A stretch of 64,000 nt of DNA, taken from sequence record OR896822.1; one strand, written 5' to 3'. The notes beneath the pieces are model-generated. The model did no database searches and was not told the DNA's origin. It worked only from the letters and a program-made list of their open reading frames with translations. Shown piece by piece: positions 32,305 to 37,954 of this stretch. This DNA is from Salmonella phage vB_SenS-3. A program made the position numbers and the translations under genes. How positions within the stretch are numbered: position 1 is the first letter of the stretch; each line of letters starts with the position of its first letter.

Positions 32305-32475
32305 ATGAAAACCTTAGTAATTATTGGTGTTAATACTCATGGTATTCGTACTACGAAAACAGTTAAAACTACTAACATTGCTGAAATTACTACAAATCCT
32401 AAGAAGTTTGATTTCGCCAAAGTCTCAGCAGTTATGACAGAACAATCTTTTAACCAAGCACTGGGAATTAAATAA
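32305..32475 (+). CDS. hypothetical protein
   Basis: start set at ATG after RBS GAGAGGAAAG within the conserved leader. Confidence 0.45.
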   Translation: MKTLVIIGVNTHGIRTTKTVKTTNIAEITTNPKKFDFAKVSAVMTEQSFNQALGIK

Positions 32476-32918
32476 TGGAAGAGAATATTCTAGATGTTTT
32501 GCGTAGGGCTTTGCAGGAATCCAAGTTTGATGGTTCTGATAAAGAAGTAGCTAAAAGCTACCAGACCATAATCGGAGATCTTCAGCGTGTTGATAAAGAC
32601 TTCATTACTTCTGAACAGTTTATATCTTATCTAAAAGCTCAACTGAAAAGCATTAATCAGACGAAAGCTAAACTTCACAGTCAAGATCTTGATAATTATA
32701 GCTTGCAGTCTGCTCAGTATGAATATATACTGAACAAATGGTTACAGCAGTATTTGCCTCCTCAGCTATCTGATTCTGAGATTCGCAAATACTTCGCAGA
32801 ATTAGTTAAGCTGAATCCTGGGATTACAAAGGGTATGCTGATGAAAGCGATTAAGGAAGAGTTTCCTGGTCGTTACGACGGTGGCATTGCTGCTCAGGTT
32901 GCTGGCGAATTTAATTAA
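32475..32918 (+). CDS. GatB/YqeY-like domain protein
   Basis: 147 aa; N- and C-terminal segments resemble the YqeY family. Confidence 0.55.
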   Translation: MEENILDVLRRALQESKFDGSDKEVAKSYQTIIGDLQRVDKDFITSEQFISYLKAQLKSINQTKAKLHSQDLDNYSLQSAQYEYILNKWLQQYLPPQLSDSEIRKYFAELVKLNPGITKGMLMKAIKEEFPGRYDGGIAAQVAGEFN

Positions 32919-32927
32919 AAATTAATT

Positions 32928-32956
32928 TGCTAAACGCTTCAAAATTCTGTATAATA
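32928..32956 (+). promoter_or_regulatory. sigma70-type early promoter directly abutting the HNH endonuclease ORF
   Basis: -35 TTGCTA, 17 bp, -10 TATAAT; ATG of 32962 lies 6 nt after the -10 with no RBS. Confidence 0.6.
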
Positions 32957-32961
32957 TATTC

Positions 32962-33444
32962 ATGAAAAGGAAAGAATACCCTACTAAAGAAATACTTGAA
33001 AAATATTTTGTAGCTGATCCTGATAATGGGATACTATATAGGAAAACAAAGAAAGGTTTGAAAGAGTGTTGTGCCAATAATAAGAAATCACATCCAGATG
33101 TGGGATTTCAGGGCGACACCTATCAACTGCATGTCTTATTATTTATTATGTACTATGGATATATGCCTGAAGAAGTAGATCATAAGGATACTAATCCTAG
33201 AAATAATAGGAAAAATAATCTAAGGGACGCCTCTAGATCGCAAAATAATGCGAATAGAAACCAACAATGCAATAATACTTCTTGGTACAAAGGAGTAAGT
33301 TGGGAAGGCTCTTCCTTGAGATACCAAGTAAGACATGAAGGAAAAAATTACAGTAAAAGAGGGTTTAAAACTGCGGAAGAGGCTTTCGAGGCCTCTAAGA
33401 TATTAAGAGAATCCTTACATAAAGAATTTACTAACTTTGGTTAG
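32962..33444 (+). CDS. HNH homing endonuclease with AP2 domain
   Basis: 160 aa; HNH core EEVDHKDTNPRNNRKNNL...N; AP2-like WYKGVSWEGSSLRYQVRHEGKNYSKRGFKTAEEA. Confidence 0.75.
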   Translation: MKRKEYPTKEILEKYFVADPDNGILYRKTKKGLKECCANNKKSHPDVGFQGDTYQLHVLLFIMYYGYMPEEVDHKDTNPRNNRKNNLRDASRSQNNANRNQQCNNTSWYKGVSWEGSSLRYQVRHEGKNYSKRGFKTAEEAFEASKILRESLHKEFTNFG

Positions 33445-34074
33445 TAATAGTGGGGTGCCGAAACCACTTATGTAACAACACTGCCGTCCTAGTATAATAG
33501 GTATTATTAGGGCTTCACCGCCTGAAGATGTGGGTTCGAGTCCCACGGTCGGAAAGAGTTGGATAACTGGTGCTTCTAATGGCGAAGCAATCGCAGGCAG
33601 TTGCGCACTGCCAAAACCACGCGGTAGTTGGTTCCAGGCTAACCAACCACTCTTGAAAAGTATATACTACGGTTTTGCTTGTTCAGGAAGCTTCGCATCG
33701 AAAATCGGAGGTGCGATTTTATCAGACCGCGTGGAGGACGTCTCTCCGTTAAGTGACGAAAAGTGGGACGATTCAGGTAGAGCTGGATATGGAACACCTA
33801 TACATATGCGGAGTGCGCACAAAGCATATTGCGGTGGTACTAAACGAAATTAGGAGTCATGACCTGCACAAGTTTAGTATGTCATAACCGATGTACATTC
33901 AGTACAAAAACCACTGAAGCTAAGATAGATAGTCACCTTGACTTAAACTGGAAGATATTGTCTGACGGAAGGGCTGCAGAGCTTAATCTGAGGGGGCTGA
34001 CCCTACCTACCGTCGGGTATCTTTAAGAGTTCTTACGAGAACTCTTAAAGATACCTAAACATTAAGGAATACTG

Positions 34075-34584
34075 ATGAATCTAGGAACTACTTGTATATT
34101 TGATCACAGAGAAATGTGTTGCCCACATATTCTGTATGTAGTTCACTTTGCAGAACGTCTTACTCTGGATGAAGCTCGTGAGAAAATGGGTGGAATTACT
34201 GGATATGATTTCCGTGAAGGTGAATACTTTAGCATTGCTCTTGATTACATTGACAATACCCGTCTCTATCATCTAGTGCAGCTAGGGGAAGAAACTGATG
34301 AAGTGAAAATGGCGAAAGATACTCTACGTCGTTATCGTCCTCAGATTCTAGAACGTACACTTCGTGGAGAACGTAGTGACCCATTGTTCTTGAAGTGCTA
34401 TGACGCAGATGTTAATGAGTATCTAGGACAGCAACGGTTTTACACTGAAATCAAAGAGTTTGTTCGTGAAAAATACGACGCTCTACTAATTGATTCCAGA
34501 GCACGACGTGCAGCTAAAAATGCTGAGAAATCTGCTAAAGCAGCACTAGAAAGCCAAACCAAACTGAACGAAATCGTTAAGTGA
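34075..34584 (+). CDS. hypothetical protein
   Basis: 169 aa ORF ending 8 nt before tRNA-Arg. Confidence 0.55.
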   Translation: MNLGTTCIFDHREMCCPHILYVVHFAERLTLDEAREKMGGITGYDFREGEYFSIALDYIDNTRLYHLVQLGEETDEVKMAKDTLRRYRPQILERTLRGERSDPLFLKCYDADVNEYLGQQRFYTEIKEFVREKYDALLIDSRARRAAKNAEKSAKAALESQTKLNEIVK

Positions 34585-34592
34585 TCTAATTT

Positions 34593-34667
34593 CGGGGTGT
34601 AGTCTAAGGGATAGGCAGGAGTCTTCTAAATTCCTTTATGCAGGTTCGAATCCTGTCACCTCGGCCA
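34593..34667 (+). tRNA. tRNA-Arg (anticodon TCT)
   Basis: hand-folded cloverleaf: acceptor CGGGGTG/CACCTCG, anticodon loop CTTCTAA, T-loop TTCGAAT, CCA encoded. Confidence 0.75.
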
Positions 34668-34693
34668 ATCTTATTACCTGTTAGGAAAATAAA

Positions 34694-34894
34694 ATGAAAA
34701 CACGATATATAGTAAAAGTAGTAGGTGAACATTCGCAAGTAAATACCACGGATGTTACAGCACTAGCATTTGAGGTAGTCTCCGGTATAGTCATATTTCA
34801 TAATGGGGATATCAAAGCTCCTGAATTTGCTGTGGATGCTGGCCTGTTTATTTCTGCAACTAAAGTAACTGTAGTAGCTAACTCTTCTAAATAA
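34694..34894 (+). CDS. hypothetical protein
   Basis: 66 aa ORF with RBS AGGAAA. Confidence 0.45.
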   Translation: MKTRYIVKVVGEHSQVNTTDVTALAFEVVSGIVIFHNGDIKAPEFAVDAGLFISATKVTVVANSSK

Positions 34895-34905
34895 TAAGGA
34901 AATAT

Positions 34906-37854: not shown

Positions 37855-37878
37855 TATAGCCCTCGCTTAGAGGGCTAT
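37855..37878 (+). terminator. putative terminator hairpin after pnuC
   Basis: ATAGCCCTC-GCTTA-GAGGGCTAT perfect 9-bp hairpin; weak T-run. Confidence 0.45.
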
Positions 37879-37895
37879 TATACAGAAATTTTCAC

Positions 37896-37924
37896 TTGCT
37901 TAATATAGAAAATTTCTGTATAAT
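37896..37924 (+). promoter_or_regulatory. sigma70-type early promoter
   Basis: -35 TTGCTT, 17 bp, -10 TATAAT; leader identical to the nadR promoter leader. Confidence 0.6.
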
Positions 37925-37954
37925 ATATTTATAAATTTGAGAGAGGAATCAAAT

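What the first reader, a model, noticed from the sequence alone, without database searches (positions are those of the whole stretch)
33445..34074. 630 nt structured, GC-rich region with an orphan tRNA T-arm and a 17-bp perfect hairpin; predicted ORF is probably not coding
Directly after an HNH endonuclease gene, the sequence contains a canonical T-arm (GTGGG-TTCGAGT-CCCAC) with no complementary acceptor 5' strand within tRNA distance, multiple GC-rich stems, and a perfect 17-bp hairpin GGTATCTTTAAGAGTTC/GAACTCTTAAAGATACC (about 34015-34056). The 107 aa ORF at 33530..33853 is Gly/Ser-rich and low-complexity. This looks like a non-tRNA stable RNA, a degenerate or permuted tRNA, or a tRNA disrupted by endonuclease-associated rearrangement.
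Basis: seen in the sequence. Interest (0 to 1): 0.6.

Follow-up and report, generated by a model that had tools for sequence, protein, structure and literature searches.

The report
Phage T5 "RNAX" stable RNA orthologue
This stretch is not a broken tRNA or a protein gene but this phage's copy of "RNAX", a roughly 610-base folded non-coding RNA with a built-in tRNA look-alike; it has been annotated in phage T5 as a stable RNA of unknown function, has no Rfam family, and I found no paper describing it.

Summary
The window is a T5-like Salmonella phage (Epseptimavirus; the region is 100% identical to phage bux). Region 33446-34056 is the orthologue of rnaX, annotated in GenBank records of T5, BF23, DT57C and DT571/2 as "stable RNA with unknown functions". 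It sits in the same slot: after the YqeY-like gene and an early promoter, upstream of tRNA-Arg(UCU).

The T-arm and the hairpin are real. The hairpin is 18 bp perfect, at 34016-34055. The T-arm is not orphan: it belongs to a complete cloverleaf (33483-33554; Rfam tRNA 33 bits, gathering score 29).

That cloverleaf is a tRNA mimic, not a decoding tRNA. Orthologues keep the acceptor, D and T arms and the elbow nucleotides. The "anticodon" arm varies: a 3-4 bp stem with a 6-nt loop, a GAGA tetraloop or a long inserted hairpin, and one lineage lacks the D and T arms.

The 107-aa ORF is not conserved. Covariation supports the RNA fold: 21 of 37 pairs in the 5' domain show compensatory changes, with 89% of cells paired against 26-45% in slid controls.

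The HNH gene is a free-standing insertion into the RNAX leader and does not disrupt the RNA.

The function is unknown. The RNA is dispensable in the laboratory, has no Rfam family, and occupies the same niche as GOLLD and ROOL RNAs.

The parts
32927..32955 (+). Sigma-70 early promoter (TTGCTA-17-TATAAT), counterpart of T5 promoter P16-17 that drives rnaX
   Evidence: 10 of 12 consensus matches, and the only strong + strand promoter-like site near the region; near-identical to the T5, BF23 and DT57C sequence upstream of annotated rnaX. P16-17 is annotated there.
32962..33444 (+). Free-standing HNH homing endonuclease gene inserted between the promoter and the conserved RNAX core. It is context, not part of the RNA core.
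   Evidence: Pfam HNH_3, 46.8 bits. PHROG 99; absent at this site in T5, HildyBeyeler, DaisyDussoix and vB_EcoS-26175II; the ATG lies 7 nt after the -10 box.
33446..34056 (+). RNAX core: conserved, structured non-coding RNA, orthologue of T5 rnaX
   Evidence: 79.6% identity over 250 nt and 71.8% over 142 nt to T5 rnaX; rnaX is annotated in the same slot; structural covariation.
33446..33482 (+). Conserved 5' leader (AGUGGGGUG..GAA..ACUUAUGU...AACACU) with a possible small hairpin AGUGG/CCACU. U at position -1 of the tRNA-like domain is invariant.
   Evidence: invariant columns. helix 1: 94.8% of cells paired but no compensatory change, so the hairpin is unproven.
33483..33555 (+). tRNA-like domain: acceptor, D-arm, degenerate anticodon-like arm (GGGC-UUCACC-GCCU) and T-arm at 33530-33546. 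No encoded CCA.
   Evidence: helices 2-5: compensatory changes in all four arms; the anticodon arm is not conserved among orthologues.
33571..33589 (+). Hairpin Hb (UGCUUC-UAAUGGC-GAAGCA)
   Evidence: helix 6. The apical pair is U-A in 16 sequences, A-U in 8 and C-G in 7. Another pair is C-G in 24 and G-C in 7.
33596..33612 (+). Hairpin Hc (GGCAGU-UGCGC-ACUGCC), followed by the conserved AAACCACG at 33614-33621
   Evidence: helix 7: 5 of 6 pairs have changes on both sides. In the Daisy, KpGranit and Erwinia types the apex carries a 50-70 nt insertion.
33694..33715 (+). Hairpin M6: stem CGCA/UGCG with the conserved loop UCGAAAAUCGGAGG
   Evidence: the stem is CGCA/UGCG, CACA/UGUG or UACAUA/UAUGUA in different phages.
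33852..33865 (+). Hairpin M8: stem AGG/CCU capped by the invariant 8-nt loop AGUCAUGA (33855-33862), which contains the self-complementary UCAUGA
   Evidence: the loop is identical in all 16 distinct contexts (Tequintavirus, Epseptimavirus, Sugarlandvirus, Pantoea phage), while the flanking stems differ and stay complementary by my own inspection (no pair count was run).
33931..33943 (+). Motif M9, AGUCA-CCU-UGACU (small hairpin). It is duplicated in T5.
   Evidence: 5 invariant pairs, so there is no covariation evidence for this hairpin.
33962..34016 (+). Three-way junction: closing helix CUGACGG/CCGUCGG, helix AGG/CCU, and two hairpins separated by the conserved CUUAAU
   Evidence: independent minimum-energy folds of the window, T5 and one Klebsiella-type sequence (L072) give this architecture from different sequences; the MFE folds of the other Klebsiella types and of L005/L017 differ; helix 92% paired, with G-C/A-U and G-C/U-G swaps.
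33952..33958 (+). AAGAUAU, able to pair with GUAUCUU (34017-34023). This alternative helix (P-ext) extends the junction stem and competes with the base of the terminal hairpin.
   Evidence: paired in all sequence types (6 of 7 positions in the T5 types, all 7 elsewhere), and the variable position changes in step (G with C, or A with U). In 7 loci this helix stays perfect where the terminal hairpin has a C-A mismatch; 100% of 72 cells paired.
34016..34055 (+). Terminal 18-bp hairpin with a UACG loop. In T5, BF23 and DT57C it lies 6 nt before the 5' end of tRNA-Arg.
   Evidence: one pair is C-G in 7 sequences and U-A in 7. G-U and U-G wobbles at three positions in orthologues are only possible in + strand RNA.
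34075..34584 (+). 169-aa ORF of unknown function inserted between RNAX and tRNA-Arg (context)
   Evidence: no family match. Present in vB_EcoS-26175II and in the Pantoea and Erwinia phages. Absent in T5.
34593..34667 (+). tRNA-Arg(UCU), the conserved downstream neighbour of rnaX
   Evidence: 49.3 bits; 92% identity to T5.

Best explanation
Region 33446-34056 (+) is this phage's rnaX gene, a roughly 610-nt modular, structured non-coding RNA of T5-like phages (Demerecviridae).

Shown here:
- Homology and synteny with annotated rnaX.
- No conserved ORF.
- Strand-specific, covariation-supported helices.
- A 5' tRNA-like domain that keeps the acceptor, D and T arms and the elbow nucleotides (GG in the D-loop, GGUUCRANUCC in the T-loop). 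Its anticodon arm is free to vary, so it mimics tRNA shape rather than decoding.

Inferred mechanism:
1. The RNA is made early from the sigma-70 promoter at 32927-32955, as part of one long transcript: HNH mRNA, RNAX, ORF169, tRNA-Arg.
2. The tRNA-like domain gives the host tRNA-processing machinery a handle. RNase P would cut at 33482/33483, after the invariant U at position -1. This would free the RNA from the upstream HNH message.
3. The 18-bp terminal hairpin acts as a 3' stabiliser or processing site. In T5 the 3' end would be made by RNase P cutting at tRNA-Arg, 6 nt further on.
4. The product is a long-lived RNA that acts as RNA. The invariant loop AGUCAUGA and other invariant motifs would be contact sites for a partner or for other copies of itself.

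Its role is unknown. My preferred guess is an accessory host-takeover or anti-defence function of the tRNA island, because it is dispensable on laboratory E. coli.
For: Identity:
- The T5 record AY543070 annotates misc_RNA rnaX, 'stable RNA with unknown functions', between promoter P16-17 and tRNA-Arg, downstream of T5.081. The same annotation is in BF23 AJ604530, DT57C and DT571/2.
- T5 rnaX aligns to window 33441-33687 (79.6%) and 33929-34060 (71.8%).
- The covariance model of the 5' domain scores the window at 198.7 bits.
- About 525 phage records carry the element.

Non-coding:
- No ORF is conserved in position or frame.
- In-frame stops occur in three sequence types, and substitutions show no consistent excess at the third codon position (12:7:6 against the T5 types, about even against the others).
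- There is no Pfam hit.
- Different annotators call different small ORFs on either strand, or none.

Structure:
- In the 5' domain 88.8% of cells are paired, against 26-45% when partners are slid. 21 of 37 pairs change on both sides. The covariation score is 0.311, against 0.13 in shuffles (0 of 500 reach it) and 0.04-0.06 when slid.
- The terminal hairpin, M6, M8 and the three-way junction keep pairing across different sequences.
- G-U wobbles fix the strand.

Mimic, not tRNA:
- The anticodon-like loops are UUCACC, GUAACU, UUGGGU or GAGA, or the arm carries a 21-nt insertion.
- ARAGORN calls the orthologues SeC, Ser(act), Ser(aga), Pro(tgg) or nothing.
Against: - I have no expression or end-mapping data for this phage.
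- I found no paper behind the 'stable RNA' label.
- RNase P processing is inferred only. The 37-nt leader that RNase P would remove is itself almost invariant, which is odd for a discarded leader.
- The STG2-type phages keep RNAX but lack the D and T arms.
- The middle third (33748-33929) is poorly conserved and mosaic.
- The alignment used for the covariation count was fitted to the structure by the model, which favours pairing.
- A laboratory BF23 stock has lost most of the gene, so any function is conditional.
Confidence: 0.88

Rival explanations
1. It is mainly a cis-acting processing or regulatory leader for the downstream genes (ORF169, tRNA-Arg) rather than a trans-acting RNA. The tRNA-like domain and the terminal hairpin would serve only to cut and stabilise the polycistronic transcript. 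The competition between the P-ext helix and the terminal hairpin would act as a switch.
For: - The element lies inside an operon, with no terminator on either side.
- It always precedes tRNA-Arg.
- The alternative pairing is conserved and changes in step with its partner.
Against: - 600-900 nt with at least ten conserved elements is far more than processing needs.
- The gene immediately downstream differs between phages (tRNA-Arg, ORF169, other ORFs) while RNAX is kept.
- The invariant loop motifs suggest contacts with partners.
- The T5 annotators list it as a stable RNA species.
Confidence: 0.15
2. 33482-33555 is a genuine decoding tRNA (an opal suppressor or tRNA-Sec, as many GenBank records label it), and the rest is unrelated spacer.
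For: - ARAGORN calls tRNA-SeC(tca).
- The Rfam tRNA score is above the gathering score.
- Records annotate tRNA-Sec or tRNA-OTHER here.
Against: - The acceptor stem has two mismatches.
- Covariation supports a 3-4 bp stem with a 6-nt loop, not a 5-bp stem with a 7-nt loop.
- The 'anticodon' differs or is absent in orthologues.
- No CCA is encoded.
- There is no long variable arm or 8+5 acceptor/T geometry as in bacterial tRNA-Sec.
- The downstream 'spacer' is conserved and covaries.
Confidence: 0.03
3. The 107-aa ORF 33530-33853, or another ORF in the region, is a real protein gene.
For: - An open frame of 107 codons exists.
- Residues 2-41 match PHROG 19105, E 1.7e-20.
Against: - The ORF is 45-53 aa or absent in orthologues and is interrupted by stops.
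- It starts with GTG inside the T-stem.
- The PHROG is a 45-aa family of ORFs called over the conserved RNA. Its conservation follows from the roughly 80% nucleotide identity.
- There is no consistent third-position bias and no Pfam hit.
Confidence: 0.02
4. It is decaying debris: a pseudo-tRNA plus junk left by homing-endonuclease traffic.
For: - HNH genes and deletions are common in this region.
- The tRNA-like domain has mismatches.
Against: - Invariant motifs and compensatory changes persist across at least three genera, Tequintavirus, Epseptimavirus and Sugarlandvirus, plus unassigned Pantoea and Erwinia phages.
- The element is present with or without the HNH gene.
Confidence: 0.02

Closest known systems
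rnaX (RNAX) of phages T5, BF23, DT57C and DT571/2, a GenBank misc_RNA described as 'stable RNA with unknown functions'
   Same: - Same genomic slot: YqeY-like gene, promoter P16-17, RNAX, tRNA-Arg(UCU).
- Homologous 5' domain (79.6% identity) and 3' domain (71.8% identity).
- Same leader motif, tRNA-like domain, M8 loop, three-way junction and terminal hairpin.
   Different: - In the window an HNH gene replaces the short leader between the promoter and the core.
- A 169-aa ORF separates the RNA from tRNA-Arg, so the 3' end cannot be made by RNase P at tRNA-Arg.
- The middle third is a different module.
- The tRNA-like acceptor stem has two mismatches.
- Core length is about 610 nt, against 636-784 nt for the annotated genes.
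GOLLD and ROOL large 'ornate' RNAs of phages and prophages
   Same: - Several hundred nucleotides long, elaborately folded, function unknown.
- Encoded by phages, often near tRNA islands.
- GOLLD has a variable linker that sometimes contains tRNAs.
- Kissing loops build their multimers (PMC12286853).
- RNAX lies in a tRNA island, contains a tRNA-like domain, has a variable middle, and has an invariant loop with a self-complementary hexamer.
   Different: - No Rfam model other than tRNA matches, even at E up to 10.
- The hosts are Enterobacterales phages.
- No evidence of multimerisation was obtained. The resemblance is one of niche and style, not homology.
T4 rnaC and rnaD (species 1 and 2 small stable RNAs)
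   Same: - Stable phage RNAs of unknown function inside the tRNA cluster.
- Directly next to tRNA-Arg and to a homing endonuclease gene (segB).
- rnaC has a weak T-arm-like match.
   Different: - They are 119 and 139 nt, not about 600 nt.
- They lie downstream rather than upstream of tRNA-Arg.
- The RNAX model finds no match beyond tRNA-like segments.
tRNA mimics embedded in longer RNAs: the tmRNA tRNA-like domain, bacterial Y RNA YrlA, mascRNA of MALAT1 (from my own knowledge)
   Same: An acceptor/T-arm/elbow mimic that lacks a functional anticodon and is used as a handle for tRNA-binding enzymes.
   Different: - ARAGORN finds no tmRNA and Rfam finds no Y RNA or tmRNA match.
- Here all four arms are present and the domain lies near the 5' end of a much longer RNA.

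Membership tests
T5-type rnaX (RNAX) | Position between the YqeY-like gene with its early promoter P16-17 and tRNA-Arg(UCU), on the same strand | tested here: met
   In the window two extra ORFs (HNH and ORF169) are inserted at the edges.
T5-type rnaX (RNAX) | Sequence homology to annotated rnaX | tested here: met
   79.6% over 250 nt and 71.8% over 142 nt; covariance model score 198.7 bits, E 2e-51.
T5-type rnaX (RNAX) | Accumulates as a stable RNA in infected cells | not testable with these tools
   This rests only on the wording of the GenBank annotation. No paper was found.
tRNA (Rfam RF00005) | Cloverleaf scoring above the family's gathering score | tested here: met
   33.0 bits against a gathering score of 29. 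ARAGORN also calls it.
tRNA (Rfam RF00005) | A 7-nt anticodon loop on a 5-bp stem, with the same anticodon identity in orthologues | tested here: not met
   Covariation supports a 3-4 bp stem with a 6-nt loop (helix 4). The loops are UUCACC, GUAACU, UUGGGU or GAGA, or the arm carries a long insertion. ARAGORN types disagree or are absent.
tRNA (Rfam RF00005) | Intact 7-bp acceptor stem and a 3' CCA end (encoded or added), with aminoacylation | tested here: inconclusive
   The window has 5 of 7 acceptor pairs and T5 has 7 of 7. No CCA is encoded in any orthologue. CCA addition and charging cannot be tested here.
tRNA-Sec (as labelled by ARAGORN and several GenBank records) | Extended acceptor/T geometry (8+5 in bacteria) and a long variable arm | tested here: not met
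   The element is 74 nt with a 7-bp acceptor, a 5-bp T-stem and a 4-nt variable region. In the Rfam scans the tRNA model, not tRNA-Sec, was the reported match of that clan.
GOLLD / ROOL | Match to the family covariance model | tested here: not met
   No match at E up to 10, either in the window element or in the 860-nt KpGranit element.
GOLLD / ROOL | Forms RNA-only homo-oligomers | not testable with these tools
   The only hint is the invariant loop AGUCAUGA, which contains the palindromic UCAUGA.
tmRNA (including permuted forms) | tRNA-like domain together with a tag-peptide reading frame | tested here: not met
   ARAGORN found no tmRNA and Rfam gave no match.
Group I or II intron, or HNH-associated guide RNA (HEARO/omega RNA) | Match to the family model, and obligatory linkage to the endonuclease gene | tested here: not met
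   No Rfam match. RNAX is present without any HNH gene in T5, HildyBeyeler, DaisyDussoix and Klebsiella phages.

The most novel reading that the evidence does not exclude
RNAX is the T5-family counterpart of the GOLLD and ROOL class: a large phage RNA from a tRNA island that works as an RNA-only or RNA-scaffolded assembly.

In this reading it self-associates through the invariant palindromic loop AGUCAUGA. It uses its tRNA-shaped domain to engage tRNA-binding factors. Candidates are host tRNA-targeting defence nucleases, RNase P, or the adjacent phage YqeY-like protein. It would therefore be an RNA-based anti-defence or host-takeover device in a genetically tractable model phage.
Probability: 0.1. 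Interest if true: 0.85.

Novelty: already known. Interest (0 to 1): 0.5.

Why it matters
RNAX is a 600-900 nt conserved, structured RNA. It is present in about 525 sequenced T5-like phages, including the classic model phage T5.

It has no Rfam family, and I could find no published structure or function. Most genome records mislabel its 5' part as tRNA-Sec, tRNA-Pro, tRNA-Ser or a pseudo-tRNA, and call spurious ORFs over the rest.

Recognising it corrects those annotations. It also removes a phantom suppressor tRNA and a phantom protein family (PHROG 19105).

It offers an E. coli and T5 system in which to ask what large phage RNAs next to tRNA islands are for. For GOLLD and ROOL that question is still open.

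Tried and rejected
- **Rfam scans.** Three E-value scans of the window element and the KpGranit element found only tRNA.
- **Literature.** Searches for RNAX, T5 stable RNA and T5 RNA-seq found nothing on this RNA. The one hit for 'RNAX' has no occurrence in its main text. Rad, the anti-retron factor of the T5 tRNA island, is a protein elsewhere in the island. The Schlafen paper does not concern RNAX.
- **Host similarity.** blastn against 5,426 E. coli genomes gave no match at E up to 0.01. The database is very large, so short antisense matches would not pass.
- **Bacterial genomes.** The leader pattern gave one hit, in a KSB1 MAG with no other similarity to the window. About that many hits are expected by chance.
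- **More distant relatives.** The search for related loci with the YqeY-like protein returned only the same T5-like isolates.
- **Three-way junction across all types.** RNAalifold on a MAFFT alignment of all 3' domains recovered only the two hairpins, because MAFFT misaligns the junction between sequence types. I therefore used independent folds and a subset alignment.
- **Long-range helix AAGAG(33558)...CUCUU(33651).** This helix would close the Hb and Hc hairpins. It is plausible in the window and in T5, but I could not put it in one register across all types, so I do not claim it.
- **Leader hairpin.** It has no compensatory changes (helix 1).
- **Leader pairing with M7 or with Hc.** Not conserved in the Daisy type; rejected.
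- **YqeY-like protein as an obligate partner.** The gene is absent upstream of RNAX in Sugarlandvirus.
- **Homology with T4 rnaC/rnaD.** None found.

Full report
**What the window is.** The 1.8 kb around the finding is 99.8-99.9% identical to Salmonella phages RA40, bux, polluks and others. Region 33445-34074 is 100% identical to phage bux, an Epseptimavirus of the Demerecviridae. ARAGORN finds 28 tRNA genes in the window, as expected for the tRNA island of a T5-like phage.

**Checking the observation.**
- The T-arm GTGGG-TTCGAGT-CCCAC is at 33530-33546.
- The hairpin has arms 34016-34033 and 34038-34055. It is 18 bp, perfect, with loop TACG, and is one of two perfect 18-bp hairpins in the 64 kb.
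- The region has 45.7% G+C against 39.8% for the window, within the top 2% of 630-nt windows.
- The + strand folds to -201 kcal/mol (z -5.6, only 20 shuffles). The - strand folds to -184 kcal/mol (z -3.8).
- The T-arm is not orphan. ARAGORN calls a 74-nt cloverleaf at 33482-33555. Rfam's tRNA model gives 33.0 bits against a gathering score of 29.
- The acceptor stem GCCGUCC/GGUCGGA has G1-A72 and U5-U68 mismatches.

**What it is.**
- The T5 reference record AY543070 annotates a misc_RNA, gene rnaX, product RNAX, 'stable RNA with unknown functions'. It is 719 nt long and lies between early promoter P16-17 and tRNA-Arg, just downstream of T5.081.
- The same feature is annotated in BF23 (AJ604530, 784 nt), DT57C (636 nt) and DT571/2.
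- The window has the same order of elements: YqeY-like gene (32475-32918, homologous to T5.081), a promoter almost identical to P16-17 (32927-32955), the region in question, then tRNA-Arg(UCU) at 34593-34667.
- T5 rnaX aligns to window 33441-33687 at 79.6% identity and to 33929-34060 at 71.8%.
- About 525 phage records carry the element: Salmonella, Escherichia, Klebsiella (Sugarlandvirus), Shigella, Citrobacter, Yersinia, Pectobacterium, Pantoea and Erwinia phages.
- The element is mosaic. The 5' module (33446-33687), a short module (33689-33747) and the 3' module (33930-34060) are widely shared. The middle (33748-33929) is variable, and the total length ranges from about 600 to 900 nt.

**It is not coding.**
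- The 107-aa ORF starts with GTG in the T-stem. It is 53 aa, 45 aa or absent in orthologues, and no ORF is conserved on either strand.
- In the aligned frame the Klebsiella, Daisy and S124 types have stop codons. Substitutions are spread over the codon positions, for example 12:7:6 and 14:13:10.
- Pfam finds nothing.
- PHROG 19105 matches residues 2-41. It is a 45-aa family of ORFs that gene callers placed over the conserved RNA.
- Annotators of related genomes call different small ORFs on either strand, or none.

**It is a folded RNA on the + strand.**
- I built a covariance model of the 5' domain (leader, tRNA-like domain and two hairpins). I used it to align 31 distinct sequences, including metagenomic ones.
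- On that alignment 88.8% of cells form pairs, against 26-45% when the partners are slid by 1-3 columns.
- 21 of 37 pairs have changes on both sides.
- The covariation score is 0.311, against 0.13 in shuffles (0 of 500 reach it) and 0.04-0.06 when slid.
- Every arm of the cloverleaf and both downstream hairpins carry compensatory changes. One pair in hairpin Hb is U-A, A-U or C-G. Five of six pairs of hairpin Hc change on both sides, and the apex of Hc accepts a 50-70 nt insertion.
- Caveat: this alignment was fitted to the structure by the model.
- Further downstream, hairpin M6 has stem CGCA/UGCG, CACA/UGUG or UACAUA/UAUGUA under a conserved loop.
- Hairpin M8 has an invariant loop, AGUCAUGA, while by inspection its flanking stem sequences differ and stay complementary.
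- The 3' three-way junction is recovered by independent folding of the window, T5 and one Klebsiella-type sequence (L072); the other types tested give partly different MFE folds.
- In the terminal hairpin one pair is C-G in 7 sequences and U-A in 7. Three positions carry G-U wobbles in orthologues. These would be mismatches on the other strand.

**The cloverleaf is a mimic.**
- The D-loop GG, the T-loop GGUUCRANUCC, the acceptor stem and U at position -1 are kept.
- The anticodon arm is a 3-4 bp stem with a 6-nt loop: UUCACC here, GUAACU in T5 and UUGGGU in Erwinia phage KEY.
- It carries a GAGA tetraloop in Pantoea phage AAS21, and a 21-nt insertion with its own hairpin in KpGranit and phB7.
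- STG2-type phages have lost the D and T arms altogether but keep the rest of RNAX.
- ARAGORN labels the orthologues SeC(tca), Ser(act), Ser(aga), Pro(tgg) or nothing. GenBank records say tRNA-Sec, tRNA-Pro, tRNA-Ser, tRNA-OTHER or pseudo-tRNA.
- No CCA is encoded.
- So this is not a suppressor or selenocysteine tRNA.

**Role of the HNH gene.**
- The 160-aa HNH_3 protein gene (32962-33444) sits between the promoter and the conserved core. T5 has only a roughly 35-nt leader there.
- Phages without the HNH gene have the same tRNA-like sequence, including its mismatches.
- The gene is a free-standing homing endonuclease that landed in the leader. It did not break a tRNA.

**How it probably works (inferred).**
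- Transcription from the early promoter gives a long RNA carrying the HNH message, RNAX, ORF169 and tRNA-Arg. No terminator-like site was found on the + strand in 32400-34900.
- The tRNA-shaped domain is the obvious entry point for RNase P. The terminal hairpin is a 3' stabiliser or processing site. In T5 it ends 6 nt before the RNase P site of tRNA-Arg.
- The mature RNA then acts through its conserved loops.
- Points against a simple picture are the near-invariant leader that RNase P would discard, and the lineage without a T-arm.
- The RNA is dispensable on laboratory E. coli. The sequenced BF23 stock OR083247 has lost it in a roughly 4-kb deletion.

**Comparison with known RNAs.**
- It is the same thing as T5 rnaX.
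- It is not in Rfam. It is not a tmRNA. It shows no homology to T4 rnaC or rnaD, although T4 has the same kind of arrangement: homing endonuclease, tRNA-Arg, stable RNAs of unknown function.
- In niche and style it resembles GOLLD and ROOL. These are large phage RNAs near tRNA islands, with a variable linker that sometimes holds tRNAs, and they assemble by kissing loops (PMC12286853). There is no sequence or model match, and I have no evidence of assembly.

**Verdict.** This is a real feature whose existence is already annotated for T5. It was correctly sensed as a non-coding structured RNA but wrongly described as an orphan or disrupted tRNA. Its function remains open.

Noticed in passing
window 32950-32964: The ATG of the HNH gene (32962) lies exactly 7 nt after the -10 box TATAAT (32950-32955). 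T5 early promoters start transcription at this distance. The endonuclease would therefore be translated from a leaderless mRNA with no Shine-Dalgarno sequence.
   Followed up: partly
L002 (Bf23 OR083247) 2585-2625, against L042 (BF23 AJ604530) and L009 (T5) 1087-1164: The roughly 4-kb deletion reported for the sequenced BF23 stock (PMC10644984) has its junction inside the RNAX tRNA-like T-arm. The 15 nt GTAGGTTCGAATCCT are shared with tRNA-Ile2, so recombination between the two T-arms left a chimeric tRNA-like gene. It removed most of RNAX, tRNA-Arg and the Rad gene. The older BF23 tRNA-region record still has the full rnaX.
   Followed up: yes
window 33855-33862; all orthologues: The loop AGUCAUGA is identical in every RNAX examined, while its stem differs between phages and, by inspection, stays complementary. 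It contains the self-complementary hexamer UCAUGA, the kind of sequence that makes kissing-loop dimers. In some phages it also reads as a Shine-Dalgarno-like GGAG followed by AUG.
   Followed up: partly
window 33952-33958 with 34017-34023: A conserved alternative helix (AAGAUAU/GUAUCUU) would extend the three-way-junction stem and compete with the base of the terminal hairpin. It changes in step with its partner (G-C here, A-U in T5). In 7 loci it stays perfect where the terminal hairpin has a C-A mismatch. It may be a conformational switch.
   Followed up: partly
L044 3883-4086 and L045 3701-3904 (STG2-type Epseptimavirus): These phages keep the leader, an acceptor-like stem (CCAGA/UCUGG), the small hairpin with a 6-nt loop and the rest of RNAX. 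They lack the D and T arms, so the tRNA shape is not indispensable to the RNA.
   Followed up: partly
window 33530-33664; PHROG 19105: PHROG 19105 (45 aa, unknown function) appears to be a spurious protein family built from ORFs called across the conserved 5' domain of RNAX. Many GenBank records likewise label the tRNA-like domain tRNA-Sec, tRNA-Pro, tRNA-Ser or tRNA-OTHER.
   Followed up: yes
L089 (T4 NC_000866) 70908-71918: T4 has a parallel arrangement: segB homing endonuclease, tRNA-Arg, then rnaD and rnaC (small stable RNAs of unknown function). rnaC shows a weak T-arm-like match.
   Followed up: partly
L007 (KpGranit) 1079-1500; L006 1013-1500: In Sugarlandvirus there is no YqeY-like gene. 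About 420-490 nt without a convincing ORF lie between the cell-wall hydrolase gene and the RNAX core. This may be a longer RNAX leader or a further non-coding element.
   Followed up: no
window 37876-37925: This is the only other perfect 18-bp inverted repeat in the window (TATTATACAGAAATTTTC / GAAAATTTCTGTATAATA, 14 nt apart). It looks like two face-to-face -10-like boxes.
   Followed up: no
window 32475-32918: The gene upstream of RNAX is variously annotated as 'recombination-related exonuclease', 'tRNA amidotransferase' or 'YqeY domain protein'. It has only a sub-threshold YqeY match (25.2 bits against 27). From my own knowledge, the YqeY/GatB tail domain binds tRNA, so this protein is a candidate partner of the tRNA-like domain in Markadamsvirinae.
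   Followed up: no
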